Source: Microgenomates group bacterium
GTDB taxonomy: Bacteria > Patescibacteriota > Microgenomatia > UBA10105 > UBA927
DNA: 64,000 bases
Direction of reading: 5' to 3'
NCBI GenBank assembly: GCA_049287205.1
Contig: JBAQFJ010000001.1
Span: 943,653 to 1,007,652 of the forward strand
The number at the start of each line of letters is the position of its first letter. Position 1 is the stretch's first letter. Below, one piece after another: positions 11,772 to 47,754 of this stretch. The notes below the pieces were generated by a model. It was not told the origin of the DNA. It saw only the letters and a list, made by a program, of their open reading frames with translations, and made no database searches. Both the position numbers and the translations under genes were made by a program.

Positions 11772-12473
11772 TTATGTTCTTTTTGCAGGGCAAAATTGTG
11801 CAAGTGCACACGTTTGACAAAGTGGATGCACTGCTCTGCACACCGCCCTTCCATGCTCAATGAGCTGATATGTGATGGTATTCCATTTTTCTTTTGGAAG
11901 TAATTGTTGCAGTTCACTCTCAATCTTTTCTGGTATCGCGTCTTTAATAAAATCGATTGTTTTGCGGGAAGTATCTGTGTACATGTATGTTTTTCCGCCG
12001 ATTGTAGGAAGTGACACCAAACGGAGCCGTTGACTTAAACGGATGACATGTGTATCAACAGCAATACCTTTTGTCACATTAAACGCGTTTGAAAGTACAA
12101 CATTTGCTGTTTTTCTTGCTACTCCTTTGATTGTAAGGAGCGATTCCATAGTTTTCGGCACTTCCCCTTTATACACGGCATTGATGCGTTTGGCCGCAGC
12201 GATAATATTTTTTGCTTTATTTTTATAAAATCCGGTTTTTTTGACAAGTGTTTCTACTGTATGGTTCGATGCAGATGCGATATCTTGTATTGTCGGATAC
12301 GTGGAAAATAACAGAGGGGTTACGCTGTTTACCATTTTATCTGTACATTGAGCCGAAAGCATGACGGCTACAAGGAGCTCCCAAGGAGACTGATACGTAA
12401 GCATAATATGTGCGTTCGGATAGTCTTTTTCAAGAATTGACAGAAGTGTATGTATTCGTACATCATCCTTCAT
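11772..12473 (-). CDS. nth: Endonuclease III (DNA glycosylase/AP lyase)
   Basis: HhH-GPD region (GVARKTANVVL) and a C-terminal CxxxxxxCxxCxxxxxC 4Fe-4S cluster loop. Confidence 0.8.
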   Translation of the reverse strand: MKDDVRIHTLLSILEKDYPNAHIMLTYQSPWELLVAVMLSAQCTDKMVNSVTPLLFSTYPTIQDIASASNHTVETLVKKTGFYKNKAKNIIAAAKRINAVYKGEVPKTMESLLTIKGVARKTANVVLSNAFNVTKGIAVDTHVIRLSQRLRLVSLPTIGGKTYMYTDTSRKTIDFIKDAIPEKIESELQQLLPKEKWNTITYQLIEHGRAVCRAVHPLCQTCALAQFCPAKRT

Positions 12474-16471: not shown

Positions 16472-16921
16472 TTAGTTTGAAGCATCAAGCGCCTGGTTTA
16501 CAAAAAAGTCCGCCCGTTTATTGAGTTCCCGTCTGACAGCAGTGTAGATAACTTTTCCACAAAGAATCCGTTCAAGAGATTTTACTTGTGCGGCTAAAAT
16601 TTGCAGCTTTGTATCTTTAATTTTAAATGTTCCCATGAGTTGATTGACGACAAGCAACGAATCCAATATGAATGTGATTTGTTCCGCCTGTTCCCCTTTT
16701 GACTGAAGATATTGCAGCGCCTTGATGACTGCGGTATATTCAGCAACATTATTTGTTGTGTCCCCTATCTTTTCGCCAAATTCCGCGAGTAATGTTCCAT
16801 TTTTCTCTATTACAACGCCAATTGCAGCTGGTCCGGGATTGCCTCTTGCTCCCCCGTCTGTGTGAATGGTAAATGCATTATTCATGGCACAAGTATCGCA
16901 CTCCCGTTTCTCTTCTGTCAA
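16472..16921 (-). CDS. Ribonuclease H, type 1 (archaeal-like RNase HI family)
   Basis: DGGARGNPGPAAIGVVI and TNNVAEYTAVIKAL motifs. Confidence 0.7.
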   Translation of the reverse strand: MTEEKRECDTCAMNNAFTIHTDGGARGNPGPAAIGVVIEKNGTLLAEFGEKIGDTTNNVAEYTAVIKALQYLQSKGEQAEQITFILDSLLVVNQLMGTFKIKDTKLQILAAQVKSLERILCGKVIYTAVRRELNKRADFFVNQALDASN

Positions 16922-19470: not shown

Positions 19471-19929
19471 TTACGCAATTGGTTTTGGAGTGATAATAAG
19501 TTTTCGATCACGCCCCTCACCCGCTGATTCTGTGCTCACGCGTTCATCACCTGAAAGGGTGAGGTGAATCACACGCCTTTCAGCTGCTGACAAGTGGGAA
19601 AGTTCAACCGGATTGCCGGTTGTAATGGCCCGTTCTGACGCACGTTGTGCCATGTACATAAGCGCTTCCTCCCGTTTTTCACGGTAATCGCCGACATTTA
19701 CATACACGCGTTCCCAAGTTCCTAATACTTTTGCGACAATCATACCGAGGATCATTTGAAAACTTTCGAGTGTTCTTCCGTGAAACCCAATGAGAAGACC
19801 TGTTTCTTCTGTATTAATGTTTACGCGGTGAGCGCCTGACTCATCCATGTCAACACTTACTTCTCCTGTAACTCCTAGGCGAGTCAAAAGATCTTCAGTT
19901 ACTTCTTTAATTTTTGCTGTTGGTTCCAT
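19471..19929 (-). CDS. Jag/KhpB-like RNA-binding protein (KH + R3H domains)
   Basis: C-terminal R3H motif (RRVIHLTLSGDERVSTESAGEG). Located downstream of yidC. Confidence 0.7.
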   Translation of the reverse strand: MEPTAKIKEVTEDLLTRLGVTGEVSVDMDESGAHRVNINTEETGLLIGFHGRTLESFQMILGMIVAKVLGTWERVYVNVGDYREKREEALMYMAQRASERAITTGNPVELSHLSAAERRVIHLTLSGDERVSTESAGEGRDRKLIITPKPIA

Positions 19930-19930
19930 A

Positions 19931-20719
19931 TTATTTTCCTTTATTTACCTGTAATTGCTGAATAATACCAAAAAGTCCGAAGATATTCCAGTACAAAGCA
20001 AGACCGATAGGCAGTTGGAATGCGAAGAATCCAAACATGATTGGTGTAATGAGCATCATTTGTTTTTGCATATCAGCCATTGTATCTTGTTTTTTCTCTT
20101 CGCCGGGTTTTGCCAGCTCCGTAGTTTTTGATGCCTTTGGCATCATCAGTTTGGACTGATAGAGTTGGAGAAGTGCCGTAATAACCGGAATCAACAGGAG
20201 CCACCAACCAAATTGTTGCCAGTCGCTTGGTTTTACACCAAGATTCATACCAAAGAATGTCACATCAAATGTAGTCACCTGTAGTGCTTTATTGTACACA
20301 ATGGCATTTATGTCCTCCATCATTTTTCCGGCATTTCCATTTCCCAGTACCTGATAAAACACATTGTAGAGTGCAATGAGGATAGGAAATTGGATGAGCG
20401 TTGGTAAACAACCTGCGGCGGGATTAACTCCATGTTCTTTGTACAACGCCATTTGTGCCTGCTGCAGTGCCTGTTTATCGTCTTTATGTTTTTTTGAAAG
20501 TTCATCCAGATGCGGTTTCATATCAGACATTTTCTTTGCGCTTTTGAGTTGTGCCTGCATCAGGGGGTAGAGAATAAGTCGAACAGCAATGGTGAGTAAA
20601 ATAATGGCAAATCCAAGTGGCCCTGGTAGATGAAGCCATTCACAGAATTTGTAAAAGACCATGAGAAGATTTGTAATTGGCCATACGAGCAGTTGATTCC
20701 AGATTGTTGGATTTGTCAT
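19931..20719 (-). CDS. yidC: Membrane protein insertase YidC (short Oxa1/SpoIIIJ-type)
   Basis: Five-TM core with a conserved first TM and amphipathic region. Its neighbours are yidD, rnpA and rpmH. Confidence 0.8.
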
Positions 20720-20961
20720 AATTTTTTGGGAATCGGGTCAAAACCGCCTTTATTCCATGGGTGACAGCGAATAATGCGTTTGAGCCCTAACCACGATCCG
20801 ATTATTATACCATAGCGATCGATTGCCTGATACGTATACTCACTGCAGGTTGGAGTAAACCGACATATCTTATCAGTCAGCCATACGTGTTTTGCAAGTC
20901 CTGTATCAAGCGAAAGATATTTTTGGTAGAACCGTATAGCAGAAAGAAAAAATTTTTTCAT
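20716..20961 (-). CDS. yidD: Membrane protein insertion efficiency factor YidD
   Basis: [19 protein letters not shown] motif. Confidence 0.8.
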
Positions 20962-21287
20962 GACAGAGAAGCAATATACGCTTCAATTGTTGTTTTTAGA
21001 TTTTGAAATGAACTGTATTGAATCGGCTGCATAATCTTACACACAATATTTTTTGGTGCGCTTTCCTTTTCAAGGAGCGGCAGAAATGCCATGGCAATTT
21101 GTTTTTTTATTTGGTTTCTTGTCACTGCCTTTTTGCTAAATTTTTTTGTGACAAGGATGCCAAGATGTGTATGTGACGACTCAGTGTTTATTGAGGTAAA
21201 TTGCATACCGTGTATTTGTGACCGAATGCCGTGGCGCATGGTTTGAATAAAATTCTTTTTTGGCAATCTGTATATAGACGGAAGCAT
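20958..21287 (-). CDS. rnpA: RNase P protein component
   Basis: Basic RnpA-like sequence and position between rpmH and yidD. Confidence 0.7.
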
Positions 21288-21342
21288 ATATCTATTATAC
21301 CTGAAAAAAGTGTACGCTGATGTTTTTGAAGACTATCTTGTG

Positions 21343-21483
21343 TTAGACAGTAAGCACTTTTCGCCCAGTTGCCCGACGCCTTTTCAAGACTCTTCGTCCA
21401 CCTTTTGTTTTCATACGAGTTCGAAACCCGTGTGTACGTGAACGTTTTGCTTTGCTTGGATGATAAACACGTTTCGTTGCCAT
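21343..21483 (-). CDS. rpmH: 50S ribosomal protein L34
   Basis: Manual translation gives [46 protein letters not shown] (46 aa). It is not in the ORF track because it is under 60 aa. Confidence 0.85.
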
Positions 21484-21555
21484 AGTCTGACTATTATACA
21501 CAAAAAACTACAGGTGATGCAATAACAAAACAACTGAAAATGATACAATGGGGGC

Positions 21556-22641
21556 ATGCGTATCGCTAAAACGACTCTACAGAAATTCCGGTTGTACGAA
21601 AAACAATCGTTCATTTTTTCTTCCGGTATTACGGTACTTGTCGGTCAAAATGCAATCGGGAAAACAAATATTCTTGAAGCAATCGCACTGGCAGCCGTTG
21701 GTAAAAGTTTTCGGGCTGTCAAAGACAGCGACATGATATTGTGGGGAAATGAACTTGCGCGGGTGACGCACACGATTGTTGACAAAAAAGGCGGTGAAAC
21801 AATACTGGAAATACTGTTGACAACAGGCATGGTACAGGGTAAAAAAACCCAAGGAAAAAAATATCTGGTCAACGGCATTCCCAGGCGTCAGGTCGATTTT
21901 GTGGGAAATCTTCATGCGGTGTTGTTTGCACCAACAGATTTAAAACTTGTTACAGAAAGTCCAAGCGTCAGGCGTGAGTATCTCAATACTGTGCTTGTGC
22001 AAGTCGATCGAGAGTATCGAAGGAATCTGCAATCCTATGAGCGTGGGCTTCGGCAAAGAAATTCGCTTTTAGACCGAATCAATGAAGGTGTCGCCGCGCG
22101 TTCACAATTGTTGTTTTGGGATCAGCTGCTCATAAAAACCGGTTCCTATATTTCGGAGAAACGAAAAGAATATATTGAAGCAGTTAACGCATATAGTCTT
22201 GATGACCTAACGTATCGTATTTTGTATGATCCCAGTATTATTTCACTATCTCGGCTTCTTCAATATGCGGATGAAGAAATTGCGGCAAAATCTACACTTG
22301 TCGGTCCGCAGCGTGATGATTTTCGATTTGAAAAAATCAGCACTGATGATATATATATTGACATCGCGCGGTTTGGATCACGAGGAGAACAACGGCTTGC
22401 TGTATTATGGTTAAAATTGGCGGAACTGACATTTATTGAGCAAAAAACCGGTGACAGACCAGTACTTCTTCTTGATGATATTTTTTCTGAACTGGATGAA
22501 GAAAGTCGTCACATTGTGTTTGCAGTTATTGATCAACAACAAACAATTATCACTTCTGCTGAGGAAGAGTTGTTGCCGATGCTTAAAAAAATCCATAACG
22601 CCGAAATTATTCAATTACCGGTCCGGCATGGAGTACAATAA
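21556..22641 (+). CDS. recF: DNA replication and repair protein RecF
   Basis: N-terminal Walker A GQNAIGKTNILEAI and the overall RecF/SMC-like layout. Confidence 0.8.
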   Translation: MRIAKTTLQKFRLYEKQSFIFSSGITVLVGQNAIGKTNILEAIALAAVGKSFRAVKDSDMILWGNELARVTHTIVDKKGGETILEILLTTGMVQGKKTQGKKYLVNGIPRRQVDFVGNLHAVLFAPTDLKLVTESPSVRREYLNTVLVQVDREYRRNLQSYERGLRQRNSLLDRINEGVAARSQLLFWDQLLIKTGSYISEKRKEYIEAVNAYSLDDLTYRILYDPSIISLSRLLQYADEEIAAKSTLVGPQRDDFRFEKISTDDIYIDIARFGSRGEQRLAVLWLKLAELTFIEQKTGDRPVLLLDDIFSELDEESRHIVFAVIDQQQTIITSAEEELLPMLKKIHNAEIIQLPVRHGVQ

Positions 22642-23453: not shown

Positions 23454-23714
23454 TTACGTTTCAATTTTTTCGTTGATTTTCATCAAAAGGTATGTCACAA
23501 GAAGTGCAAGTGCAGTAACAACCACTGCATAGACAAGTTGTGAGAATACGACACTTCCTTTTGGCATGTATGGTTTGATATACGTATCAATTGTCGCTTG
23601 TATTACCGTGTTCCATGCGAGTGCCGCAACGAGTCCAAAAGCGGCTGTTGATAGCGCTATCATTTGTTTGAGCATGGCACGCGCCATTGCCTTGGATTGT
23701 TTTTTGGTTTCCAT
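23454..23714 (-). CDS. Small membrane protein (2 TM; DUF5654-like)
   Basis: 86 aa with two hydrophobic helices. Confidence 0.4.
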   Translation of the reverse strand: METKKQSKAMARAMLKQMIALSTAAFGLVAALAWNTVIQATIDTYIKPYMPKGSVVFSQLVYAVVVTALALLVTYLLMKINEKIET

Positions 23715-23740
23715 ACCATTATTATATACCTATATCCTTT

Positions 23741-24784
23741 ATGTACACACCAACCTTCAATATCACCAATAAAATACTGAAAAACATCGGCATCATTGAA
23801 GCTGCAAAAGAAGTGATTGAAAATGCACCTCTTGTACCTGCATGGGAAGCAAAATTTCGGGAAGAGGCAATTGTGAGGACTGTTCATCACGGAACACACA
23901 TTGAAGGAAACGAACTTAATTTTACAGAAGCAGAAAAAGTACTTGCCGGAGCAAAAGTGGTAGGACGCGATCGGGATATTCAAGAAGTCTTAAATTATCG
24001 AAACGTCTTGAAATTTATTGAATCATATCAGGGGGATGCAATCGGTGATGAAACGGTAAAGCATGTGCATGCGCTTATTGCCGACAGGATATTGCCGGAA
24101 GCCGTTGTTGGTGAATACCGGAAATCTCAAGTGGTGGTAAAAAACAGTCAAACTGGAGAAATTACATTTCGTCCGCCGCCGGCAGTGGAAGTTCCTTTCC
24201 TTGTTTCTGACTTCTTGTTGTGGCTTAAAAATGCGGCACCTGATGAAATGCATGCGGCACTTAAGGCGGGAATCACCCATTATGAATTAGTACGTATCCA
24301 TCCATTTCTTGATGGAAACGGTAGAGCAGCGCGCGCGATTGCGACACTTGTTTTATTTCGGGATGGATATGATATTAAACGGTTTTTTTCACTTGAAGAA
24401 TATTATGATCGGGAACCGCTGAATTATTACAACGCGCTCCAGAGTGTTGCGACAGAGAATGGAAATTTAACGCACTGGCTTGAATATTTTACTGAAGGAC
24501 TTGCAATAGAACTTTCACGTATAAAGGAAAAAGTAAAAACACTGTCCACAGATCTTAAAATGAAAAAACAACTCGGCGGGCAGCAATTGACCCTCTCGGA
24601 ACGGCAAATAAAAATTGTTGAATTTATTCAGGAAAATGGATTTTTGCAGAATAAAGCATTTTTTGAATTATTCCCGATGATTAGTGAAGACACGGTGCTC
24701 CGGGAAATTAAAGATTTAATGAAGAAAGGCATACTTACAAAACAAGGATCAACAAAAGGTGTTCGCTATATCCTAAAAGGATAA
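23741..24784 (+). CDS. Fic family protein with a C-terminal winged-helix domain
   Basis: Fic motif HPFLDGNGRAARA. Start taken at MYTPTFNITNKIL. Confidence 0.8.
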   Translation: MYTPTFNITNKILKNIGIIEAAKEVIENAPLVPAWEAKFREEAIVRTVHHGTHIEGNELNFTEAEKVLAGAKVVGRDRDIQEVLNYRNVLKFIESYQGDAIGDETVKHVHALIADRILPEAVVGEYRKSQVVVKNSQTGEITFRPPPAVEVPFLVSDFLLWLKNAAPDEMHAALKAGITHYELVRIHPFLDGNGRAARAIATLVLFRDGYDIKRFFSLEEYYDREPLNYYNALQSVATENGNLTHWLEYFTEGLAIELSRIKEKVKTLSTDLKMKKQLGGQQLTLSERQIKIVEFIQENGFLQNKAFFELFPMISEDTVLREIKDLMKKGILTKQGSTKGVRYILKG

Positions 24785-24798
24785 CGCAATTTATACCA

Positions 24799-26520
24799 AT
24801 GACATTCCAGACGCTTGCTGTTTACGTTCAAAAACTTGAAAGCACTCCATCGCGTAACGCAATGACGCAGATTCTTGCTGACCTTTTTCTTCAGGCAAAA
24901 AATGACGAAATTGGAGAGCTATGCTATTTGCTGCAGGGGAGAGTAGCGCCTTTATATGAGGCAACAGAATTTGGTATTGCAGACAAGCTTATGATTCGAG
25001 CGGTTGCTATGGCATATGGAGTGGAAGAATCTCATGTGACAACACTTTTTAAAAAATATGGGGATTTGGGAATTGCAGCAGAGGAAATTGCGGGTGCTAA
25101 AAAACGATCTGTACAATACCAACTTCATGATGTGTTTTTTAAATTAAAAGCTGTTGCCATGATGGGTGGGGAGGGGTCACAGGAACAAAAAATTCAGGCA
25201 TTATCCGATTTATTCATTCATTCTGATTCACTTTCTGTCCGGTATCTTGTGAGGATTCCTTTGGATAAACTGCGTTTAGGGTTTTCGGATATGACGATGA
25301 TTGATGCGTTATCCTGGATGATTACTGGAACGAAAGCGCATAAAGATCAGATTGAGGCGGCTTATGAAGTCAGGCCGGATCTCGGGTATATCGCAACACA
25401 GCTTAAAATGCATGGTTTGCACGGGGTTTCCCATGTGAAACCTGTTGTGGGTGCACCGATTCTTGCAGCCCTCTGTCAGCGGCTTCCCAATGCCAGTGAA
25501 ATGATAAAGAAAATGGGAGAAGTAGATGTTGAACCGAAATATGACGGCGTGAGAACACAAATTCATTTCGACAGGAAAAACAAAAAGATTACTGTCTCGA
25601 GTTTTTCAAGAAATTTGGAAAATACAACAGCGATGTACCCGGAACTTGAGCATATAGCAGATCAAATTCATGCAGATGACGTTATTTTGGATAGTGAAGC
25701 GGTTGGGTATGATGAAAAAACACATCGGGTCATTCCATTTCAGGAAACTATGACGAGGAAACGAAAACATAATATTGCAGGGGCGACGCAGAGTGTACCT
25801 TTACGGTTTTTTGTTTTTGATATTTTAGAGAAGAATGGAGAGGATTTGATGGGTGTTTCTCTTTCAAAACGGCGGGATATTTTGGAACGCACCGTTATGA
25901 ACGGCCCAATTTTATCTGTTTCGCCGCATATTGTTACAGACAGCATTCAAACGCTCCGCGATTATCATACAGAGCAAATTACACTTGGTCTTGAAGGCGT
26001 CGTTGTGAAGAAATGGGAAGCGGTGTACGAACCGGGACGTCGCGGGTATACATGGGTGAAATTCAAAGAAGAAAATAAAGTGGGAAAACTTGCAGACACT
26101 GTCGATGCTGTAGTGATGGGCTATTACAAAGGGGAAGGGAAGCGGACGAACTTCGGTATCGGGGCATTTTTAGTGGGTGTTAAAAAGGGAGAATCATTTG
26201 TGACAATGACCAAAATCGGAACCGGAGTGACTGATGCACTATGGAAAGAAATGAAATTGTTGTTTGGCGCGTATGCATCAAAAGAGCAACCAAAAGCATA
26301 CCAGCAGGTTGATAAAATATTTATTCCAGATGTGTGGATAACACCTGAAATTGTTGTGGAAATTGCGGCAGATGATATTACAAAATCACCGTCACACGGT
26401 GCTAAATTTGCATTACGATTTCCAAGGCTTGTCAGAATTAGAACTGATAAAAACGCGAGTCAGGTAACTACAGTGAGCGAATTGGAAACCATGTATCATA
26501 ATCAGGAGTCAATACAATGA
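24799..26520 (+). CDS. ATP-dependent DNA ligase (archaeal/eukaryotic Lig type, 573 aa)
   Basis: Motif I EPKYDGVR, motif IV EGVVVKK and motif V WVKFK, plus an N-terminal DNA-binding domain. Confidence 0.8.
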   Translation: MTFQTLAVYVQKLESTPSRNAMTQILADLFLQAKNDEIGELCYLLQGRVAPLYEATEFGIADKLMIRAVAMAYGVEESHVTTLFKKYGDLGIAAEEIAGAKKRSVQYQLHDVFFKLKAVAMMGGEGSQEQKIQALSDLFIHSDSLSVRYLVRIPLDKLRLGFSDMTMIDALSWMITGTKAHKDQIEAAYEVRPDLGYIATQLKMHGLHGVSHVKPVVGAPILAALCQRLPNASEMIKKMGEVDVEPKYDGVRTQIHFDRKNKKITVSSFSRNLENTTAMYPELEHIADQIHADDVILDSEAVGYDEKTHRVIPFQETMTRKRKHNIAGATQSVPLRFFVFDILEKNGEDLMGVSLSKRRDILERTVMNGPILSVSPHIVTDSIQTLRDYHTEQITLGLEGVVVKKWEAVYEPGRRGYTWVKFKEENKVGKLADTVDAVVMGYYKGEGKRTNFGIGAFLVGVKKGESFVTMTKIGTGVTDALWKEMKLLFGAYASKEQPKAYQQVDKIFIPDVWITPEIVVEIAADDITKSPSHGAKFALRFPRLVRIRTDKNASQVTTVSELETMYHNQESIQ

Positions 26521-27458
26521 TAATAGTATTTTATGCCATTGCATTTCTCGTGTTGGGATTTGTGCTTGCAAAAAGCGCTGACTGGGTAGTAAAAGGCACA
26601 GCGTTTATCGCACATAAAGCACATATCAAGAGTTTTCTTCTTGGATTTTTAATCTTAGGGTTTGCAACGACAATCCCAGAAATGTTTGTTGCCTATCAGG
26701 CAGTCCATGACGGTGTACCTCAATTATCTGTCGGGAATCTTCTTGGGGGATCAATACTTTTGCTTTCTTTTGTTATGGGAGGAAGCGCAATTATCCTGAA
26801 GCGGATTAAACTTGATCACGGGTTGTCTATATTTGATATTGGCATGTCTTCCGCAGTCATTTTAGCACCAGCCATGGTGATATGGGATGGGAATCTGACA
26901 CGACCGGAAGGATGGATTCTCCTTGGTGTGTATGCAGCGCAACTGTTGTTTATCAATAAGGAACAGCATGTTGCCGACACTATGGAGCATCACGCCAAAC
27001 AAGTTTCGCACGCATGGCATGCATTGGGACTGCTTGCCGCAGGCCTTGTCGGTATGGCTATTGCATCACGGTATATTGTGACGATTGCAGAAATTGTTGC
27101 CAACATGTTTTCCATACCCGCATTTGTCGTCGGTTTATTTCTTGTGACCATTGGGACAAATTTACCGGAATTGACGCTCGCGGTTGAAGCAATCGTAAAA
27201 AAACAAAAAGATATTGCATTCGGCGATATCTTAGGTTCCAGTGTAATTAATACGCCTCTTTTAGGAATTATTTGTATTATCCGCCCATTTTCAATTCCTG
27301 ATCATGAACGGATGCAAGTAACGCTCATATTACTTGTTCTTGTCTCTCTATTTTTCTTTTGGGCGGCTGCAACAAAAAAAGATATAACAAGACGGGAAGG
27401 ATTCGTACTTTTTACCATCTATATTGCATTTATCTTGTTTGAAATGCTTCATATATAG
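26517..27458 (+). CDS. Ca2+/cation antiporter (CaCA family, YrbG-like)
   Basis: Two alpha-repeats (TIPEMFV and GTNLPELTLAVEA). About 10 TM helices. Confidence 0.7.
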   Translation: MIIVFYAIAFLVLGFVLAKSADWVVKGTAFIAHKAHIKSFLLGFLILGFATTIPEMFVAYQAVHDGVPQLSVGNLLGGSILLLSFVMGGSAIILKRIKLDHGLSIFDIGMSSAVILAPAMVIWDGNLTRPEGWILLGVYAAQLLFINKEQHVADTMEHHAKQVSHAWHALGLLAAGLVGMAIASRYIVTIAEIVANMFSIPAFVVGLFLVTIGTNLPELTLAVEAIVKKQKDIAFGDILGSSVINTPLLGIICIIRPFSIPDHERMQVTLILLVLVSLFFFWAAATKKDITRREGFVLFTIYIAFILFEMLHI

Positions 27459-27480
27459 CCGTATAATGCGATGTATACCT

Positions 27481-28305
27481 ATGGGAAAACCATTTTTTTC
27501 TGTTATCATTCCGGCGCTCAACGAAGAAAAGTTTTTACCAAAACTTCTTGAGAGTCTTTCTCATCAACATTTTACTGATTTTGAGGTCATTGTTGTGGAT
27601 GGAAAATCAAAAGACAAAACTGTCGCTGTTGCATCAACATATATTGGAAAAGTGCCAAATTTATCCGTGGTTGTTGCGGATCACGCCAGCTTACCGTATC
27701 AGAGAAATATTGGCGCGGATGCCGCGACGGGAGGGTGGCTCGTATTTATTGACGCAGATACTGTACTCTATTCTTATACATTGGAACGGTTATACACACA
27801 ACTTTCTGTTTCTGAAGAGTCATTCTTTACCACATGGTTTAGTCCTGATAGCGATGATATCAATGATGTGCGGTTAACGTTGTTTGCTATTTTCTTTATT
27901 GAATTATCAAAAACTGTTAAACGTGCCGTATCACCCGGTTCGTTTACCGTCGTAAAACGATCAGCATTTACTGCTATTAACGGGTATGATATTGAACACC
28001 CATTTTTGGAAGATCAGGATTTTTCCCGTCGTATGTCTACACACGGGTTTGAGCTTTCAATAATAAGGGAGACACTATATATATGGTCACTTAGACGCTA
28101 TCGAAAAGAAGGAACAGCGAAAGTACTGCAAGCATATACCCGGTCTATTTTGCCTGTGATTTTTTCCAAAAAAGTGCCAAAGAATATGAAGGGATATGAA
28201 ATGGGCGGACAAATATTTTCGAAGAAAAAAAAGAGTGTGAAAAAACCGTTATTAAAGGACACGGAACGAAAAATGAAAAAATTGATGCAGGAAATTTTTG
28301 AATAA
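27481..28305 (+). CDS. Family 2 glycosyltransferase
   Basis: FSVIIPALNEE...VIVVDGKSKDKT and the GT-A fold DxD region. Start at MGKPFF. Confidence 0.7.
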   Translation: MGKPFFSVIIPALNEEKFLPKLLESLSHQHFTDFEVIVVDGKSKDKTVAVASTYIGKVPNLSVVVADHASLPYQRNIGADAATGGWLVFIDADTVLYSYTLERLYTQLSVSEESFFTTWFSPDSDDINDVRLTLFAIFFIELSKTVKRAVSPGSFTVVKRSAFTAINGYDIEHPFLEDQDFSRRMSTHGFELSIIRETLYIWSLRRYRKEGTAKVLQAYTRSILPVIFSKKVPKNMKGYEMGGQIFSKKKKSVKKPLLKDTERKMKKLMQEIFE

Positions 28306-28311
28306 ACTCGT

Positions 28312-29628
28312 ATGCGAATTATTGCCGATCTTCATCTTCATTCACGATTTTCTAGGGCCGTTTCCCGTGAGATGACCATAAAAAATTTGTACGCTTCGGG
28401 TGTCCGAAAAGGAATAGGTCTTATTGCAACGGGAGACTGGACACATCCCTTATGGATGGGTGAAATTGAAAGTGAACTGGAAGAGATGGGAAACGGATTT
28501 TTGCAGCTAAAAGGAACAACGGAAGGTCCAAAATTTTTGCTTTCCACTGAAATATCCTGTATTTTTTCCCAGAATGGAAAAACAAGACGGGTGCATACTC
28601 TTATCTGGGTTCCAACCATTGCCTCAGCGATCAAAATCAGCCAGGAAATTACTAAACAGGGTGGTAATGTACTTTCAGACGGAAGGCCAATTTTAGGGTT
28701 TACCCTGATTCGCCTTGCTGAACTTGTGTTGACCATTGAGCCTAAGGCTCTTATAGTGCCTGCACACATTTGGACGCCGTGGTTTTCTGTGTACGGGAAG
28801 ATGGGCGGATTTGACAGCCTAAAAGAAGCATTTGGAGAATATGAAAAATATATTTATGCGGTGGAAACCGGGCTTTCAAGCAGTCCTGATATGAACTGGC
28901 AAATTGGAGAACTTGATACCCGTTCTATCGTATCGTTTTCTGATGCACACAGCGGTCCAAAATTAGGAAGAGAGGCAACGATATTTTCTTTGCCTTCGCT
29001 GTCATTTGAGTATCTTACTGCGGCACTGAAAAATTATAAAAATAATCCGAAACTTCCACACATTGAATCAACCATCGAGTTTTATCCCGAGGAAGGAAAA
29101 TATCATTACACGGGGCATAGAGACTGTCATATTCGTTTGACGCCTAAAGAAGTCGAAAAAAAAGGAACAACCTGTCCTGTATGTGGGAAGCCGCTTACTC
29201 AAGGTGTGATGCAACGCGTTTCTGAGCTTGCAACGAGACCCCTCGCATCAAATAAGACAACAACAGATGGAATGAGTCATTATGAAAATGTCGGGCATGC
29301 ACGTCCTCCATTTATCATGTTGGTGCCACTTATGGAAATTATCGCCGAAGCTCTCGGCAGACCCGTCACGAGTCCGAGGGTTCAAGAGCGGTATGACGCG
29401 TTAATTAAGGAATTTACCAGTGATTTTGCTATTCTTATGCATGTCTCTATTGAAGAAATTGCCCGGGTATCACTTCCTGAAATAGCAGACGGAATTAAAA
29501 AAGTCCGTACAGGAGATATTGTAATTGATCCCGGATATGACGGGGTGTTTGGCGTTGTGAAAATCTGGAAAAGTGAAAAAGATAGGGATCTCGTCTCCGC
29601 TGCGGGAGAACAGGAAAGTATATTTTAA
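28312..29628 (+). CDS. Endonuclease Q-like PHP-domain nuclease (TIGR00375 family)
   Basis: ADLHLHSRFSRAVSREMT, GTGDW, RRVHTLIW, PAHIWTPWFSVYG, LSSSPDM and FSDAHSGPKLGRE motifs, plus C-terminal Zn-finger cysteines (HYTGHRDCH...CPVCGKPL). The pattern matches my recollection of archaeal EndoQ. Confidence 0.6.
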   Translation: MRIIADLHLHSRFSRAVSREMTIKNLYASGVRKGIGLIATGDWTHPLWMGEIESELEEMGNGFLQLKGTTEGPKFLLSTEISCIFSQNGKTRRVHTLIWVPTIASAIKISQEITKQGGNVLSDGRPILGFTLIRLAELVLTIEPKALIVPAHIWTPWFSVYGKMGGFDSLKEAFGEYEKYIYAVETGLSSSPDMNWQIGELDTRSIVSFSDAHSGPKLGREATIFSLPSLSFEYLTAALKNYKNNPKLPHIESTIEFYPEEGKYHYTGHRDCHIRLTPKEVEKKGTTCPVCGKPLTQGVMQRVSELATRPLASNKTTTDGMSHYENVGHARPPFIMLVPLMEIIAEALGRPVTSPRVQERYDALIKEFTSDFAILMHVSIEEIARVSLPEIADGIKKVRTGDIVIDPGYDGVFGVVKIWKSEKDRDLVSAAGEQESIF

Positions 29629-30155: not shown

Positions 30156-30788
30156 GTGCACATGAAAATAATTGTCGGACTTGGAAATCCCGGAAGTGAA
30201 TATCAAGATACGCGTCATAATATCGGGTTCATGACGATTGATAAACTGGCAAAAGAATTGACCCCGGAATCCGTTTCCTGGAAAGAAGAGGCAAAATTTA
30301 GCGCCATGACGACAAAAATTGGTGAAGTTGTTCTGGTAAAACCGATTACCTTCATGAATAATTCTGGCGTTGCCGTGTCTGCAATTATGCATTTTTTCAA
30401 ATTGACTCCCGCTGATGTCTGGGTGATTCATGATGATATTGATCTGCCGATTGGAAAAATTAGGATTCGCCAGAAGGGAAGCAGCGCGGGACATCGGGGC
30501 GTTGAGTCTCTTATTGCCGAACTTAAAACTGATGCGTTTGTCCGATTTCGTCTTGGTATCGGGCGGGGTAAGTTGTTTAGTAAAGGTGATTCGGATACGC
30601 AAGATATTGAAAAAGGAAACGCGGGGAAAGCGCAACACGGAAGGCATCAATGGGATATCTCATTTGTTCTTTCCAGGTTTTCTCAGGGAGAAGCGGGAAC
30701 GCTCAAACATTTGATTAAAAATGGAACGGAAGCCGTCCGTATTGCACTGAATGAAGGCATTGATAAGGCAATGACACGATTCAATTAA
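30156..30788 (+). CDS. pth: Peptidyl-tRNA hydrolase (with a C-terminal extension)
   Basis: MKIIVGLGNPGSEYQDTRHNIGF N-terminus. Confidence 0.85.
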   Translation: MHMKIIVGLGNPGSEYQDTRHNIGFMTIDKLAKELTPESVSWKEEAKFSAMTTKIGEVVLVKPITFMNNSGVAVSAIMHFFKLTPADVWVIHDDIDLPIGKIRIRQKGSSAGHRGVESLIAELKTDAFVRFRLGIGRGKLFSKGDSDTQDIEKGNAGKAQHGRHQWDISFVLSRFSQGEAGTLKHLIKNGTEAVRIALNEGIDKAMTRFN

Positions 30789-38902: not shown

Positions 38903-39328
38903 TCAGTTTTTCAGCGTCAGCAAATAGGTCTCAAGTTGTTTGAGGGCGTCGTCCTCTGAAGAAAAAGGAATTTCTTTTTTTACAGCAGGACACCCCCTGA
39001 GCATACGACTGACTCTGTCAGTCTTCTCATAGAGAAGGACAACGGGTTTGCCGGTTTGATGTGCATGTTCTACCTCAATACCAGTGCCTGTGGTAGGTTC
39101 GCCGACATAGGCAATCATGATGTCGCTTTTGTCGAGCGCAGCAATGTCCCGGTTGTAGACGTCTTGAGAAGAGACATCAGGATTTGCATCCGGATCAGTG
39201 CCGTTTAAAAATGCCCAGAAGTAGGTAAACCCGAGATTTTCGGCAATAGCAGCCATTTTTTTGTAAAACGATTTCGTTTTATCGGGTTTAGGTAAATCGT
39301 TGAGCGCGCCGGCAAAAAATATATGCAT
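38903..39328 (-). CDS. Nucleoside 2-deoxyribosyltransferase-like protein
   Basis: IFFAGAL N-terminus and IAYVGEPTTGTGIEVEHAHQTGKPVVLL, typical of the NDT family. Confidence 0.45.
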   Translation of the reverse strand: MHIFFAGALNDLPKPDKTKSFYKKMAAIAENLGFTYFWAFLNGTDPDANPDVSSQDVYNRDIAALDKSDIMIAYVGEPTTGTGIEVEHAHQTGKPVVLLYEKTDRVSRMLRGCPAVKKEIPFSSEDDALKQLETYLLTLKN

Positions 39329-43383: not shown

Positions 43384-43935
43384 CAATAAAAAGTTCGTTT
43401 CGCGGGATAAGCGATTACTGAGTAATCTTTTATCTCGCGACAAGAGCGCGTCGTCGCGTAAACCGCGACAATAGCACTTTTACAATATCAATAGTATCTT
43501 CCTTTATAAATAGGACAAGGAAGATACATGGTTTTTTTGAATGAAATATGAGTAGTTACATCGTAAGGGATAATCTTAAATGTTGATTACCTGTTACGAT
43601 GACATTTCGTTGGGCGACAATTTTTTTATTAAATGAGTCGAGAAAAATAGAGCAAAGCGCGCTAATTAATTTTAGCTCCTTTGTTCTCTGCAACGCTTTT
43701 AAAGTTGATAATGGATGCCCTGGGTATTCATGCCGAGGAAGGACGTATATGACAGCGATATTCGTCGGGGAGGAGTCATAATCCTGTGATCCGGCGGTTT
43801 CCGAATGGGGAAACCCGTCTAGTGAAGAACTAGTCAATGTACGATGAAGATAACCGAAAGGTTGGGATAGTCGTATGTAGGATACCGGGCGAACTGAAAC
43901 ATCTCAGTAGCCTGAGGAATAGAAATCAAGTACGA

Positions 43936-43967
<32 letters not shown>

Positions 43968-45684
43968 AAGTCTAAACCACAGCGCAAGTTGTGGGGTTGT
44001 AGGGCTTTCGATCTGGAATGCAATTGGTGATAACAGAATACCGTGGAATAGGAAACCAAAGAACGTGAAAGTCGTGTATGTGAAATTACCAATTCTCCTA
44101 GAGAGTTCCTAAGTACCATGGACCACGAAGGGTCTGTGGGAATCTGGGTCAACCACGATCCAAGACTAAATACATGAATGCACCGATAGTGAACAAGTAC
44201 CATGAGGGAAAGGTGAAAAGCACCCCGGAAGGGGAATGAAATAGTACCTGAAATTATCAACTAACAAACAGACGAAGTCCTGCAATCGCAAGATTTGGAT
44301 AACGTCGTGCCTATTGAAGAATGAACCGGCGAGTTGCCCAGTACGGCTTTGCTTAATCAAGTAACCCTTGAGGAGGCGTAGTGAAAGCGAGGTCTAATTG
44401 ACCGATTATGTTGTACTGGACAGACCCGAAACCAGGTGAGCTAACCATGAGCAGGGTGAATGTTGACGAAAGCCAACAAGAGGCCCGAACTCGTCAGAGC
44501 TGCAAATCTGTGAGATGACTTGTGGTTAGGGGTAATATGCCTATCGAACCTGGAGATAGCTGGTTCTCCCCGAAATATATTTAGGTATAGCGGTTACTAA
44601 TTCCCGGAAGGGGTAGAGCACTGAATGATACGTGTTTCGCAAGGAATACGCATCAATCAAACTCCGAATACTTTCCGTGATACCGTAACTAGTCAGACAT
44701 GCACGGCTAAGCGCGTGTGTCAAGAGGGCAACAGCCCGGACTTACATCTAAGGTCTCTAAGTGTGTGCTCAGTGGTTAAGGAAGTTATGAATTTAAGACA
44801 CCCAGGAAGTTGGCTCAGAAGCAGCCACCTTTTAAAGAACGCGTAACAGCGCACTGGATGAAATTCGTAGCGCCGAAAATGAACGAGGCTCAAGCACGCC
44901 ACCGAAGATTAAGATGTGCCGTAAGGCACGTGGTAGGGGAGCGTTCTGTTCTGCGGTGAAGGTTAGGCTGTAAGGCTGACTGGAGCGGACAGAAGTGAGA
45001 ATGCCGGTATGAGTAGCGTTTGGAAGTGAGAATCTTCCATGCCGAATGCGCAAGGTTTCCGAAGCAACGTTCGTCGACTTCGGGTAAGTCGGATCTAAGC
45101 CGAGGCCATTATTTTGATGGCGTAGGTCGATGTATAAACGGTTTATATTCCGTTACTATAGTGTATTGATTAAGACACAAAGGAATGACAATGAGGGATT
45201 TGTTGATGTCTCGCACTCGCGGGATCTAAGCATTAAAGTAGTGAGGACTGGTAAATCCGTTCTCATGTTTAACTAAAGATGTGGGGGAGTTTGAGGAGCA
45301 ATCCGATGACAACATCAATCGTTTCTTATTCGAGAAAAGTTTCGTTGTGAAATACATTGTATCCGTACTAATAACCAACACTGGTGCGCTGGTAGAGTAT
45401 ACCAAGGCAAGCGGGCGACAGCAGTTTAAGGAACTCGGCAACAAAAACTAGGTGTAACTTATTGGAGATACCTTACCTAGAGCAATCTAGGTCACAGTAA
45501 ACGACACTATGCAACTGTTTAACTAAAACACAGGTCTCTGCGAAGCGGAAACGCAACGTATAGGGGCTGACACCTGCCCAGTGCCGGTAAGTTAAAAATG
45601 GTCGGTAAACAAAAACGTAAGTTTTTTTAGCTGGCTTTTTAAGCTCCGGTGAACGGCAGCAGTAACTATAACTGTTCTATGGTA

Positions 45685-46912: not shown

Positions 46913-46948
<36 letters not shown>

Positions 46949-47310: not shown

Positions 47311-47754
47311 TCGGTCTCTATCCTGTGTGAGCGTTCGATTCTTGAGGGGAGTTCTCTCTAGTACGAGAGGACCGAGAGGAACAGATCCCTGGTTTGCCTG
47401 TTGTCACCCTGAGAGGTGGCACCGCAGGGTAGCTAGATCTGGAAGGGATAAGTGCTGAAAGCATCTCAAGCACCAAGCCCACCCCAAGATGAAGAATCGT
47501 TGAAGATCCGTTGTAGATGACAACGTTGATAGGCGAGAAGTGTACGCACCGTGAGGTGTTCTAGCTTACTCGTACTAATTGATCGAATGTTGTGGAGAAC
47601 AAAGGAAGATTTGTTCTATTCCCAAACGATATGAACATCGCCTCTGGGATCAGCAACAAGATTATCCCTTATGTGTAATTACTCATTCAAAAAGTGTGAA
47701 TATTGATATTAACAATTAAATATTGGTAAAATAGCGAATCGAGAACCGCTCTAG

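What the first reader, a model, noticed from the sequence alone, without database searches (positions are those of the whole stretch)
24799..29628. Archaeal-type DNA repair set: ATP-dependent ligase and EndoQ-like nuclease (plus type-1 RNase H at 16.5 kb)
Seen: a 573-aa ligase has KYDGVR, EGVVVK and WVKFK motifs, so it is ATP-dependent rather than NAD-dependent. Three kb downstream a PHP-domain protein matches, motif for motif, my recollection of Pyrococcus endonuclease Q (DLHLHS.FS.AVS, PAHIWTPW, SDAHSGPKLGRE, C-terminal Zn finger). An RNase HI of the archaeal type 1 family sits at 16472-16921. Established: EndoQ cleaves 5' of dU, hypoxanthine and AP sites, and is archaeal with sporadic bacterial occurrences. 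Inference: this lineage may rely on an archaeal-like lesion-incision route (EndoQ, then the ligase) alongside Nth, which fits CPR or DPANN-style horizontal sharing.
Basis: partly seen in the sequence, partly recalled or inferred. Interest (0 to 1): 0.55.

Follow-up and report, generated by a model that had tools for sequence, protein, structure and literature searches.

The report
Clamp-tethered EndoQ and ATP ligase block
A tiny-genome (CPR/Microgenomates) bacterium carries a genuine endonuclease Q and an archaeal-style ATP-dependent DNA ligase in a gene block conserved across its class, but both are already correctly named in public records and the nuclease belongs to a large bacterial branch, not a recent archaeal import.

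Summary
Window 24799-26520 encodes a three-domain ATP-dependent DNA ligase, 28312-29628 a full-length endonuclease Q (EndoQ) homologue, and 16472-16921 a Sto/LC11-type RNase HI. NCBI already names the identical ligase and EndoQ proteins, from a Microgenomates MAG.

EndoQ is not sporadic in bacteria: at least 600 species genomes carry close homologues. Its nearest relatives are bacterial, including EndoQ-UvrD helicase fusions in several non-CPR phyla. Pyrococcus (35% identity) and Brevibacillus (30%) are more distant.

This bacterial clade differs systematically from the archaeal enzyme in two ways. The first zinc-finger Cys is an invariant His. The disordered C-terminus ends in a beta-clamp-type motif (QL[SG][IL]F; QESIF here), where Pyrococcus carries a PCNA-binding box.

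The ligase lies upstream of EndoQ on the same strand in 63 of 80 related loci. Peptidyl-tRNA hydrolase is linked just as often, so this is mainly inherited block synteny. RNase HI is unlinked. Whether an NAD-dependent ligase coexists could not be tested.

Verdict: a real but largely ordinary repair gene set, with a modestly new bacterial EndoQ variant.

The parts
24799..26520 (+). ATP-dependent DNA ligase, Lig1/archaeal three-domain type (DNA-binding, nucleotidyltransferase and OB domains); adenylation Lys247 lies at nt 25537-25539
   Evidence: Pfam A_N/A_M/A_C. TIGR00574 scores 372.8 against cutoff 217.8. Aligns end to end with 2hiv. Motifs I, III, IV, V and VI are conserved in 119 homologues. 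NCBI names the identical protein 'ATP-dependent DNA ligase'.
28312..29628 (+). Endonuclease Q homologue (PHP catalytic domain, Zn-binding domain, C-terminal helical domain, disordered tail)
   Evidence: PfuEndoQ E 7e-51 over the full length. Foldseek TM 0.78/0.85 to 5zb8. All metal and pocket residues map. NCBI names the identical protein 'endonuclease Q family protein'.
29116..29184 (+). Zn-binding site of EndoQ: H269-x2-C272 ... C288-x2-C291 (His replaces Pfu Cys249)
   Evidence: Residue map. Counts over 81 CPR sequences are H 81/81, C 80/81, C 81/81, C 81/81. Brevibacillus and Pyrococcus have C4.
29611..29625 (+). C-terminal pentapeptide QESIF, a candidate beta-clamp-binding motif at the end of a disordered tail
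   Evidence: Clade consensus EQL[SG][IL]F-COOH in 115/120 homologues. 77/80 loci carry it, 44 in strict form, against 0 of about 1069 other ORFs. pLDDT is below 50 for residues 430-438. The consensus QL(S/D)LF is given in PMC9690074.
23687..24784 (+). Fic-domain protein with a C-terminal wHTH, 14 nt upstream of the ligase; conserved block member
   Evidence: Pfam Fic, 66.7 bits. Present in 58/80 loci; Fic-to-ligase gap is under 150 nt in 22 loci.
26517..27458 (+). Na/Ca exchanger family membrane protein; a variable insert between ligase and EndoQ, and not a repair gene
   Evidence: Pfam Na_Ca_ex. Present in only 17/80 loci.
27481..28305 (+). Family-2 glycosyltransferase; a variable insert between ligase and EndoQ, and not a repair gene
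   Evidence: Pfam Glycos_transf_2. Present in 23/80 loci.
21556..22641 (+). RecF; upstream end of the conserved block, divergent from rpmH-rnpA-yidD-yidC-jag
   Evidence: Pfam SMC_N/AAA_23. Present in 40/80 loci. Neighbours identified.
30156..30788 (+). Peptidyl-tRNA hydrolase; downstream end of the conserved block, used as the synteny control
   Evidence: Pfam Pept_tRNA_hydro. Present in 65/80 loci, and in 51/59 loci with at least 6 kb downstream.
16472..16921 (-). RNase HI of the Sto/Halo/LC11 (archaeal-like type 1) subgroup; not linked to the ligase-EndoQ block
   Evidence: Pfam RNase_H. 3u3g E 9.5e-29, with the TDGG, AEY, LDS and RAD acidic positions aligned. Overlaps a Polysacc_synt flippase gene by 4 nt.
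11772..12473 (-).
   Evidence: Pfam HhH-GPD, 79.7 bits.

Best explanation
The window comes from a Microgenomates (CPR/Patescibacteria) genome.

EndoQ. The 438-aa protein is a functional-looking member of a large bacterial branch of the endonuclease Q family. Inferred from conserved residues: it uses the PHP two-metal centre to nick DNA immediately 5' of a flipped-out deaminated base (dU, dI) or an AP site, leaving a 3'-OH and a 5'-phosphate lesion end. Its Zn-binding domain uses His-Cys-Cys-Cys.

Clamp tether. The disordered C-terminus ends in a beta-clamp-type peptide (QESIF; clade consensus QL[SG][IL]F). The enzyme is therefore probably recruited to DNA by the DnaN sliding clamp. This would be the bacterial counterpart of the PCNA/PIP-box tether of the archaeal enzyme.

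Ligase. The 573-aa ligase is a Lig1-type ATP-dependent nick sealer. After strand-displacement or 5'-3' exonuclease resynthesis by enzymes not encoded in this window, it is the obvious candidate to close the nick.

Gene block. The two genes sit in a collinear housekeeping block conserved across Microgenomates: recF-nnrD-fic-lig-[variable inserts]-endoQ-[DUF4870]-pth. This is compatible with co-expression but does not prove a dedicated partnership.

Origin. The module is vertically inherited within this class, not a recent archaeal acquisition.

What is shown and what is inferred. Shown: homology, residue conservation, fold, motif statistics, synteny. Inferred: substrate range, clamp binding, the ligase's role after EndoQ.
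For: EndoQ identity:
- E 7e-51 over the full length to 5zb8.
- TM 0.78/0.85.
- H8, H10, E80, H95, H152, D211 and H213, plus pocket residues T155, E185, G187 and L188, align to the mutationally defined Pfu residues.
- E80, H95, H152, D211 and H213 are invariant in 81 sequences and H10 in all 80 with a residue at that column; H8 varies (H 55, Q 22, E 3).

Clamp motif:
- Present in 115/120 homologues.
- Present in 77/80 loci, against 0 of about 1069 control ORFs in strict form.
- Retained at the far C-terminus of EndoQ-UvrD fusions.
- The tail is disordered in the model.
- Consensus and PIP analogy come from PMC9690074 and PMC5961232.

Ligase.

Block:
- 63/80 loci have the ligase upstream on the same strand, 10 of them directly adjacent.
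- In the window the gaps and overlaps are small: fic to lig 14 nt, lig overlapping the exchanger by 4 nt, GT2 to endoQ 6 nt.

Bacterial clade:
- 35% identity to Pyrococcus and 30% to Brevibacillus, against 43-51% to the fusion proteins of Fibrobacterota, Gemmatimonadota, KSB1 and other phyla.
- In the distance tree the fusion clade is sister to the stand-alone clade that holds the window protein.
- GC content is uniform.
Against: - There is no biochemistry for any CPR EndoQ.
- The window's own tail (QESIF) has Glu where the consensus has Leu.
- The TIGR00375 score (165.9) is below the curated cutoff (326.6).
- The first Zn ligand is changed, and two main-chain pocket positions differ (L168T, N191F).
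- Ligase-EndoQ linkage is no more frequent than EndoQ-Pth linkage (52/59 against 51/59). Outside Microgenomates no ligase is adjacent: L073 and L074, three fusion neighbourhoods and Brevibacillus.
- The ligase has no recognisable clamp motif.
- No Pol I, flap endonuclease, UDG or LigA lies in the window, so the rest of the pathway is unseen.
- The promoter and terminator scan was uninformative.
Confidence: 0.62

Rival explanations
1. The ligase is simply the cell's housekeeping (possibly sole, replicative) DNA ligase. Its position near EndoQ is inherited gene order in an origin-proximal housekeeping block, with no special functional tie to EndoQ.
For: - The block starts at recF, divergent from rpmH-rnpA-yidD-yidC-jag.
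- Pth, an unrelated function, is linked to EndoQ as often as the ligase.
- Fic-to-ligase adjacency is tighter than ligase-to-EndoQ adjacency (22 against 10 loci under 150 nt).
- The ligase is a near-universal member of the block (52/59 informative loci).
- It has the full Lig1 architecture, which serves replication in archaea and eukaryotes.
- No LigA was seen in 1.4 Mb of related DNA. This is weak evidence, because all of that DNA is the same genomic region.
Against: - Tight adjacency is commoner for ligase-EndoQ than for EndoQ-Pth (under 150 nt: 10 against 3; under 600 nt: 21 against 10).
- The intervening genes are variable inserts (17/80 and 23/80 loci), which suggests an ancestral lig-endoQ pair.
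- By general knowledge, NAD-dependent LigA is regarded as universal in bacteria. This was not tested here.
Confidence: 0.3
2. One reading: an archaeal-type repair set (EndoQ, ligase, RNase HI) acquired by horizontal sharing between CPR bacteria and archaea/DPANN, and working as one lesion-incision route.
For: - The ligase's best solved relatives are archaeal (Sulfolobus 318.7 bits, Pyrococcus 289) rather than bacterial LigD (about 70).
- The best NCBIfam equivalog-type model is haloarchaeal LigA.
- The RNase HI resembles Halobacterium- and Sulfolobus-type enzymes.
- EndoQ was first described in Thermococcales (PMC4357722).
Against: - EndoQ's nearest relatives are bacterial, across many phyla.
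- Identity to PfuEndoQ is 35%, and the clade-wide differences include a bacterial clamp motif.
- At least 600 CPR species carry it in the same block, so it is old and vertically inherited.
- Composition is uniform, and it is absent from the phage collection.
- RNase HI is unlinked and sits in a cell-envelope operon.
Confidence: 0.1
3. The PHP protein is an EndoQ homologue that has drifted to another substrate, for example a general AP/3'-end-processing nuclease or an RNA-DNA junction nuclease. On this reading it is not a deaminated-base endonuclease.
For: - It scores below the TIGR00375 cutoff.
- The Zn domain helps form the lesion pocket in the Pfu complex (PMC11354406), and its first ligand is changed.
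- Pocket positions differ: L168T (invariant Thr) and N191F.
- H8 is Gln or Glu in 25/81 relatives.
- There is a clade-specific insertion between E80 and H95.
Against: - Every side chain shown by mutagenesis to matter in PfuEndoQ is conserved: E76, H84, H139, D193, G169 and L170.
- The two changed pocket residues contact the base through main-chain atoms only.
- H8A keeps about half activity in PfuEndoQ.
- Distant Bacillus homologues retain EndoQ activity according to PMC5961232.
Confidence: 0.12

Closest known systems
Pyrococcus furiosus endonuclease Q (PDB 5ZB8, 7K30; archaeal 'family 1')
   Same: - The same three-domain fold (TM 0.78/0.85).
- The same PHP metal ligands and lesion-pocket side chains.
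- A Zn-binding domain at the same place.
- A disordered C-terminal tail carrying a sliding-clamp-binding peptide.
   Different: - 35.9% identity.
- The first Zn ligand is His, not Cys.
- The tail ends in a bacterial beta-clamp-type motif instead of a PIP box.
- Clade-specific insertions are present.
- It scores below the TIGR00375 cutoff.
- It sits in a conserved block with a ligase gene. By my recollection of locus tags the Thermococcales genes are not adjacent (not tested here).
Bacillales EndoQ (B. pumilus/B. subtilis type; here Brevibacillus laterosporus WP_031414379.1)
   Same: A bacterial, stand-alone EndoQ with conserved catalytic residues. The Bacillus enzymes are reported to have EndoQ activity (PMC5961232).
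   Different: - Only 30% identical.
- It keeps the C4 zinc site.
- It has no C-terminal clamp-type tail.
- It has His at the Trp157 position.
- Its context is nudF-endoQ-spoIIM-fur-xerD, with no ligase.
EndoQ-UvrD/PcrA helicase fusion proteins (about 1000-1200 aa) of Fibrobacterota, Gemmatimonadota, KSB1, Zixibacteria, Calditrichota and Latescibacteria
   Same: - They are the closest relatives of the window EndoQ domain (43-51% identity).
- They have the same His-Cys-Cys-Cys site.
- Most end in QLxLF.
   Different: - They carry a C-terminal SF1 helicase.
- They occur in large free-living genomes.
- No ligase is adjacent in the three neighbourhoods inspected.
Archaeal/eukaryotic Lig1-type ATP-dependent DNA ligases (Sulfolobus 2HIV, Pyrococcus 2CFM, human LIG1)
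   Same: The DNA-binding, adenylation and OB domains are collinear end to end. Motifs I, III, IV, V and VI are present.
   Different: - The bacterial-host protein starts at residue 21 of the Sulfolobus enzyme, so it lacks that enzyme's N-terminal extension. From memory, that extension carries its PCNA-binding peptide.
- No clamp motif was detected.
Sto/LC11/Halobacterium-type RNase HI (PDB 3U3G, 4E19, 2EHG; Rv2228c N-domain)
   Same: About 135-aa RNase H fold with the aligned acidic residues. Best hit E 9.5e-29.
   Different: It is an ordinary member. It is encoded apart from the ligase/EndoQ block, next to cell-envelope genes.

Membership tests
Endonuclease Q family | PHP-domain metal ligands His8, His10, Glu76, His84, His139, Asp193 (and His195) of PfuEndoQ | tested here: met
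   They map to H8, H10, E80, H95, H152, D211 and H213. All are conserved in every CPR sequence with a residue at that column except H8, which is H 55, Q 22, E 3. The residue list comes from PMC5961232.
Endonuclease Q family | Lesion-recognition pocket (Thr142, Glu167, Gly169, Leu170 side chains; Leu168 and Asn191 main chain) | tested here: met
   T155, E185, G187 and L188 are conserved. The two main-chain positions are T186 and F209.
Endonuclease Q family | Four Zn ligands at the positions of Cys249, Cys252, Cys268 and Cys271 | tested here: met
   H269, C272, C288 and C291 occupy the four aligned positions and are conserved in 81 sequences. Metal binding itself was not tested.
Endonuclease Q family | The zinc site is of the C4 (all-cysteine) type | tested here: not met
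   The first ligand is His in all 81 CPR sequences and in 91 of the 92 long (>=680 aa) representatives where the site was parsed. Pyrococcus and Brevibacillus have Cys.
Endonuclease Q family | Three-domain fold: PHP, Zn-binding and C-terminal helical domains | tested here: met
   AlphaFold2 model with pLDDT 81.9 and pTM 0.84. Foldseek hit to 5zb8 at E 3e-37, TM 0.78/0.85 over about 430 columns; the next hit has TM 0.36.
Endonuclease Q family | Score above the curated cutoff of NCBIfam TIGR00375 | tested here: not met
   165.9 bits against a cutoff of 326.6, although the alignment is full length (5-414 against 2-372 of 374) at E 1.7e-48. Precomputed Pfam PF27218 (MJ0043_C) is recorded for the identical protein.
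Endonuclease Q family | Incision immediately 5' of dU, dI, dX or an AP site | not testable with these tools
   This needs an enzyme assay.
Archaeal EndoQ (family 1) | C-terminal PIP box that binds PCNA | tested here: not met
   The tail ends in QESIF, and the clade consensus is QL[SG][IL]F, the bacterial clamp-motif type. The PIP box is described in PMC5961232.
Beta-clamp-binding proteins | Terminal QL(S/D)LF-type penta- or hexapeptide on a flexible tail | tested here: inconclusive
   The clade is clearly positive: 115/120 homologues; 44 strict and 33 loose of 80 loci; 0 strict in about 1069 control ORFs. The window protein has the looser QESIF. The tail has pLDDT below 50. Binding to DnaN was not tested.
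ATP-dependent DNA ligase (Lig1 type) | Nucleotidyltransferase motifs I (KxDG), III, IV, V and VI | tested here: met
   KYDG at residues 247-250, DSEAV at 298, EGVVVK at 399, WVKFK at 419 and LRFPRLVRIR at 539, conserved in 119 homologues.
ATP-dependent DNA ligase (Lig1 type) | Three-domain architecture, with scores above the curated cutoffs | tested here: met
   Pfam A_N 112.1, A_M 162.9 and A_C 65.7 bits. TIGR00574 372.8 against 217.8. Aligns 1-569 against 21-607 of 2hiv.
NAD-dependent DNA ligase (LigA) | LigA adenylation domain, OB fold, Zn finger, HhH and BRCT domains | tested here: not met
   No LigA-type Pfam or NCBIfam hit for this protein. E. coli LigA finds nothing in the window or the 80 loci. 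Whether a LigA exists elsewhere in the genome was not testable.
RNase HI, Sto/LC11/Halobacterium subgroup | RNase H fold with the four aligned acidic residues, and closest to this subgroup | tested here: met
   Pfam RNase_H 45.7 against 25.8. 3u3g at E 9.5e-29 with TDGG, AEY, LDS and RAD aligned. E. coli-type enzymes score only about 1e-4.

The most novel reading that the evidence does not exclude
In Microgenomates the Lig1-type ATP-dependent ligase has displaced NAD-dependent LigA and is the cell's only ligase. On this reading EndoQ, held on the beta clamp by its C-terminal peptide, is the main entry point for uracil, hypoxanthine and AP-site repair. An archaeal-style 'nick first, then reseal' route, organised on a bacterial clamp, would then be core housekeeping in a whole bacterial class.
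Probability: 0.15. Interest if true: 0.7.

Novelty: new variant of a known kind. Interest (0 to 1): 0.4.

Why it matters
The EndoQ literature, including a 2024 paper, still describes the enzyme as archaeal with a few bacterial homologues. No paper in the searched library links it to CPR bacteria or to the bacterial sliding clamp.

The data here point to a very large bacterial EndoQ branch: Patescibacteria plus helicase-fused forms in several other phyla. This branch has its own zinc-site chemistry and a beta-clamp-type tail.

That gives concrete, cheap experiments on how EndoQ-initiated repair is organised in bacteria: clamp binding, the helicase hand-off and the ligase partner. It also bears on how minimal-genome bacteria deal with base deamination.

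The gene assignments themselves add nothing new. NCBI already names both proteins correctly.

Tried and rejected
1. LigA elsewhere in the genome.
- tblastn with E. coli LigA against the window and 80 related loci found nothing. All of that DNA is the same region, so the result says little.
- Walking out from the window ends failed. Three of the four edge proteins tried are not on record, and the fourth lies on a 12.7 kb contig only.

2. Literature. Searches for EndoQ or ATP-dependent ligase together with CPR, Patescibacteria, Microgenomates or DnaN gave nothing relevant. The 2017 paper on bacterial EndoQ families and the 2021 complex-structure paper are not held. I therefore cannot exclude that the helicase fusion or the clamp motif has already been noted there.

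3. Operon signals. Promoter-like sites were at chance level. Terminator-like sites were about twice the shuffle mean, but none gave a clear operon boundary.

4. An origin next to recF. There is no DnaA-box cluster, and the gap holds rpmH, rnpA and yidD.

5. A clamp motif in the ligase. None is conserved. The only recurrent match lies inside motif IV.

6. Mobile-element carriage of EndoQ. There are no phage hits, and one Brevibacillus replicon.

7. Pair-specific synteny. The Pth control led me to reject this as strong evidence.

8. Monophyly of the block-carrying CPR clade. My bootstrap test was poorly designed and uninformative. Only the coarse topology is used.

Full report
**1. What is in the sequence**

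Ligase (24799-26520, +, 573 aa):
- Pfam DNA_ligase_A_N, A_M and A_C all pass their cutoffs.
- TIGR00574 scores 372.8 bits against a cutoff of 217.8.
- The protein aligns end to end (1-569) with residues 21-607 of the Sulfolobus solfataricus ligase 2hiv (E 7.6e-94). Pyrococcus, Thermococcus and Archaeoglobus ligases follow, then human LIG1. Bacterial LigD-type domains score far lower.
- Motifs I (KYDG, Lys247), III, IV, V and VI are conserved in 119 homologues.

EndoQ (28312-29628, +, 438 aa):
- It matches Pyrococcus furiosus EndoQ over its whole length (E 7e-51).
- It matches TIGR00375 over the full length at E 1.7e-48, but at 165.9 bits it is below the curated cutoff of 326.6.
- An AlphaFold2 model (pLDDT 81.9, pTM 0.84) superposes on 5zb8 and 7k30 at TM 0.78/0.85. 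The best non-EndoQ PHP protein reaches only 0.36.

RNase HI (16472-16921, -, 149 aa):
- It is most similar to the LC11/Sto/Halobacterium/Rv2228c-N group.

**2. Source organism and annotation status**

- The identical EndoQ and ligase sequences are in NCBI as 'endonuclease Q family protein' and 'ATP-dependent DNA ligase' of a 'Microgenomates group bacterium' MAG, on a 1,020,031-bp contig.
- The window also holds a 3.9-kb bacterial 23S rRNA. It is interrupted by a LAGLIDADG ORF and a group I intron, a CPR hallmark.
- The gene identifications are therefore correct but not new.

**3. Membership test for EndoQ**

The residues defined by structure and mutagenesis in PfuEndoQ come from PMC5961232. 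They map as follows.

| PfuEndoQ | Window protein | Role |
|---|---|---|
| H8 | H8 | metal ligand |
| H10 | H10 | metal ligand |
| E76 | E80 | metal ligand |
| H84 | H95 | metal ligand |
| H139 | H152 | metal ligand / pocket |
| D193 | D211 | metal ligand / pocket |
| H195 | H213 | PHP-site His |
| T142 | T155 | pocket side chain |
| E167 | E185 | pocket side chain |
| G169 | G187 | pocket |
| L170 | L188 | pocket side chain |
| L168 | T186 | pocket, main chain only |
| N191 | F209 | pocket, main chain only |
| C249 | H269 | Zn-domain ligand |
| C252 | C272 | Zn-domain ligand |
| C268 | C288 | Zn-domain ligand |
| C271 | C291 | Zn-domain ligand |

- In an 81-sequence alignment of CPR homologues the metal and pocket residues are conserved in every sequence with a residue at that column, except H8 (H 55, Q 22, E 3). 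H8A keeps about half activity in PfuEndoQ.
- The one systematic departure is the zinc domain. Pfu C249 is His in all 81 sequences, while the other three ligands remain Cys in 80 or 81 of 81.
- Brevibacillus and Pyrococcus keep four cysteines.
- The window protein is thus an EndoQ-family member of a distinct subfamily.

**4. A clamp-binding tail**

- The last nine residues are predicted disordered and end in QESIF.
- Among the 120 closest database homologues, 115 end in Qxx[LIMVF][FLMY], with the consensus EQL[SG][IL]F-COOH.
- Among the 80 genomic loci, 44 end in a strict penta- or hexapeptide form (Q[LIMV]x[LIM]F or Q[LIMV]x[LIM]x[FL]), 33 in a looser form and only 3 in none.
- All 44 strict hits among the 1149 ORFs of at least 150 aa in those loci are the EndoQs themselves.
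- This is the beta-clamp-binding consensus QL(S/D)LF (PMC9690074).
- PfuEndoQ carries a PCNA-binding PIP box in its own disordered C-terminus (PMC5961232).
- I infer that the bacterial clade swapped the clamp-specific peptide while keeping the tether. The inference is strong for the clade. It is weaker for this protein, which has Glu at motif position 2.
- The Brevibacillus enzyme has no such tail.
- No paper in the searched library mentions EndoQ together with DnaN.

**5. Distribution and evolution**

Every one of the best 80 with an informative title is Patescibacteria/Microgenomates: Gottesman-, Levy-, Woese-, Davies-, Roizman- and Shapirobacteria among others.
- An exhaustive HMMER search of 1.84 billion 50%-identity cluster representatives gave 3273 hits at E<=1e-3 and 866 at E<=1e-30.
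- About 100 of the best 150 representatives are long proteins (most about 950-1200 aa; nine of them are shorter, truncated or intein-bearing forms). The EndoQ domain occupies residues 1 to about 420, followed by a UvrD/PcrA SF1 helicase.
- Sources name these fusions from Chitinispirillaceae/Chitinivibrionales, Latescibacteria, Calditrichota, KSB1, Zixibacteria and Gemmatimonadota, often on multi-megabase contigs.
- The fusions share the His-Cys-Cys-Cys site, and most end in QLxLF after the helicase.
- The window EndoQ is 43-51% identical to them, 35% to Pyrococcus and 30% to Brevibacillus.
- A neighbour-joining tree is only a rough guide. It puts Pyrococcus and Brevibacillus outside, a fusion clade (43/60 bootstraps) on one side, and the stand-alone clade holding the window protein on the other.
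- GC content is flat at about 0.41 through the region. No phage carries a homologue.
- The statement 'archaeal with sporadic bacterial occurrences' reflects the published literature (PMC4357722, PMC5961232, PMC11354406). It does not reflect present sequence data.
- A recent archaeal or DPANN transfer of EndoQ is not supported.
- For the ligase, an ancient archaeal origin remains possible, because its best characterised relatives are archaeal. I could not build a proper phylogeny.

**6. Is the ligase tied to EndoQ?**

- In 63 of 80 loci the ATP-dependent ligase lies upstream of EndoQ on the same strand. The median gap is 1.3 kb, and 10 are directly adjacent (under 150 nt).
- The genes between them in the window, a Na/Ca exchanger and a family-2 glycosyltransferase, occur in only 17 and 23 loci. 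They look like inserts into an older lig-endoQ pair.
- The whole stretch is collinear across the class: recF-nnrD-fic-lig-...-endoQ-(DUF4870)-pth.

| Pair | Present where at least 6 kb of flank is available | Gap under 150 nt | Gap under 600 nt |
|---|---|---|---|
| ligase to EndoQ | 52/59 | 10 loci | 21 loci |
| EndoQ to Pth (control) | 51/59 | 3 loci | 10 loci |
| Fic to ligase | not computed | 22 loci | 46 loci |

- The linkage is thus mainly inherited block synteny. Only the excess of tight adjacency is pair-specific.
- No ligase was found within the fetched flanks of the seven CPR loci that lack the block yet have at least 6 kb upstream. The neighbours of two of these, L073 and L074, were annotated and are unrelated to DNA repair. 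The three fusion-gene neighbourhoods and Brevibacillus have none either.
- The block begins next to rpmH-rnpA-yidD-yidC-jag, which is the classical origin-proximal neighbourhood with dnaA and dnaN missing. That fits a housekeeping role for the ligase at least as well as a dedicated repair role.

**7. Mechanism proposed**

1. EndoQ, probably recruited by the beta clamp, nicks 5' of dU, dI or an AP site.
2. A polymerase with 5'-3' exonuclease or strand-displacement activity replaces the damaged stretch. In the fusion lineages a UvrD-type helicase may do this job.
3. The Lig1-type ligase seals the nick.

This follows the pathway models proposed for the archaeal enzyme in PMC4357722. Only homology, conserved residues, the motif statistics and gene order are shown here. 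Substrates, clamp binding and the ligase's role are inferred. The helicase fusion is independent genomic support that bacterial EndoQ feeds a nick-directed excision route.

**8. The rest of the 'set'**

- RNase HI lies 11 kb upstream on the opposite strand. It overlaps a polysaccharide-flippase gene by 4 nt and sits beside an O-antigen-ligase-like gene. Nothing links it to the block.
- An HhH-GPD glycosylase (11772-12473) and RadA (51321-52628) are elsewhere in the window.
- No UDG, Pol I or LigA lies in the window.

**9. What could not be settled**

- Whether an NAD-dependent LigA coexists in this genome. This decides between 'accessory repair ligase' and 'sole ligase'.
- Whether the 2017 classification of bacterial EndoQ families already covers the helicase-fused and clamp-motif forms. 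That paper is not held.

**10. Verdict**

The genes are real, already annotated, and ordinary for this lineage.

What goes beyond the annotation:
- a large bacterial EndoQ clade with a His-Cys3 zinc site and a beta-clamp-type tail;
- helicase fusions of that clade in other phyla;
- a class-wide gene block that keeps EndoQ next to a Lig1-type ligase.

Interest is moderate.

Noticed in passing
window 43688-47597 (23S rRNA); ORF 45802-46236; intron 46993-47250: The bacterial 23S rRNA is about 1 kb longer than the model. It contains a LAGLIDADG homing-endonuclease ORF and, separately, a group I intron. tRNA-Ala lies upstream and 5S downstream, and no 16S is in the window.
   Followed up: partly
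window 23687-24784 and loci L001-L080: A Fic-domain protein with a C-terminal wHTH sits 14 nt upstream of the ligase. Fic-to-ligase adjacency (22 loci under 150 nt, 46 under 600 nt) is tighter than ligase-to-EndoQ adjacency. A link between an AMP-transferase and an AMP-dependent ligase is unexplained.
   Followed up: partly
proteins P0265-P0389, P0390-P0507; loci L084, L085: EndoQ fused to a C-terminal UvrD/PcrA helicase (about 1000-1200 aa) is common in Fibrobacterota, Gemmatimonadota, KSB1, Zixibacteria, Calditrichota and Latescibacteria. Sources mostly annotate these only as helicases. Most still end in QLxLF.
   Followed up: partly
proteins P0241, P0246, P0247: Some EndoQ homologues (830-940 aa) are interrupted by inteins. 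They hit Intein_splicing, two of them (P0241, P0246) also LAGLIDADG_3, and one an HTH domain. The inteins sit inside the nuclease domain.
   Followed up: partly
window 19471-21555: rpmH-rnpA-yidD-yidC-jag lies divergent from recF with only 54 nt between rpmH and recF. This is the classical origin-proximal arrangement, but dnaA and dnaN are absent and there is no DnaA-box cluster.
   Followed up: partly
EndoQ residue 8 in loci L001-L080: The first PHP metal ligand (His8) is Gln in 22 and Glu in 3 of 81 CPR EndoQ sequences, although all other metal ligands are invariant.
   Followed up: no
window 26503-26520 versus 29608-29625: The ligase ends in ...NQESIQ and EndoQ in ...EQESIF in the same genome. 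The ligase tail consensus (NQ[EK]S[IV]x) lacks the terminal aromatic residue of a clamp motif. The resemblance may be coincidence.
   Followed up: no
loci L001, L002, L005, L007, L009 and many others: Many records titled 'uncultured Gammaproteobacteria bacterium' carry the Microgenomates-type block with 45-71% identical EndoQ. The titles look like placeholder or wrong taxonomy labels.
   Followed up: no
L082 (NZ_CP011075.1, Brevibacillus laterosporus 'plasmid', 733 kb): The record typed as a plasmid carries chromosomal-style genes around EndoQ: mciZ, nudF-like NUDIX, spoIIM, fur, xerD and deoB. It may be a chromid or a chromosome fragment.
   Followed up: no
window 1-64000: Cumulative GC skew rises almost monotonically across the whole 64 kb with no turning point. 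A paper on a closed Microgenomates genome reports unusual one-directional skew (PMC7143001).
   Followed up: no
window 38903-39328 (-), 51321-52628 (+), 5096-5956 (+): Other nucleic-acid-related genes are present: a nucleoside 2-deoxyribosyltransferase, RadA/Sms, and a tyrosine recombinase (XerC/D-like) near two tRNA-Met genes and a tRNA-Trp gene.
   Followed up: no
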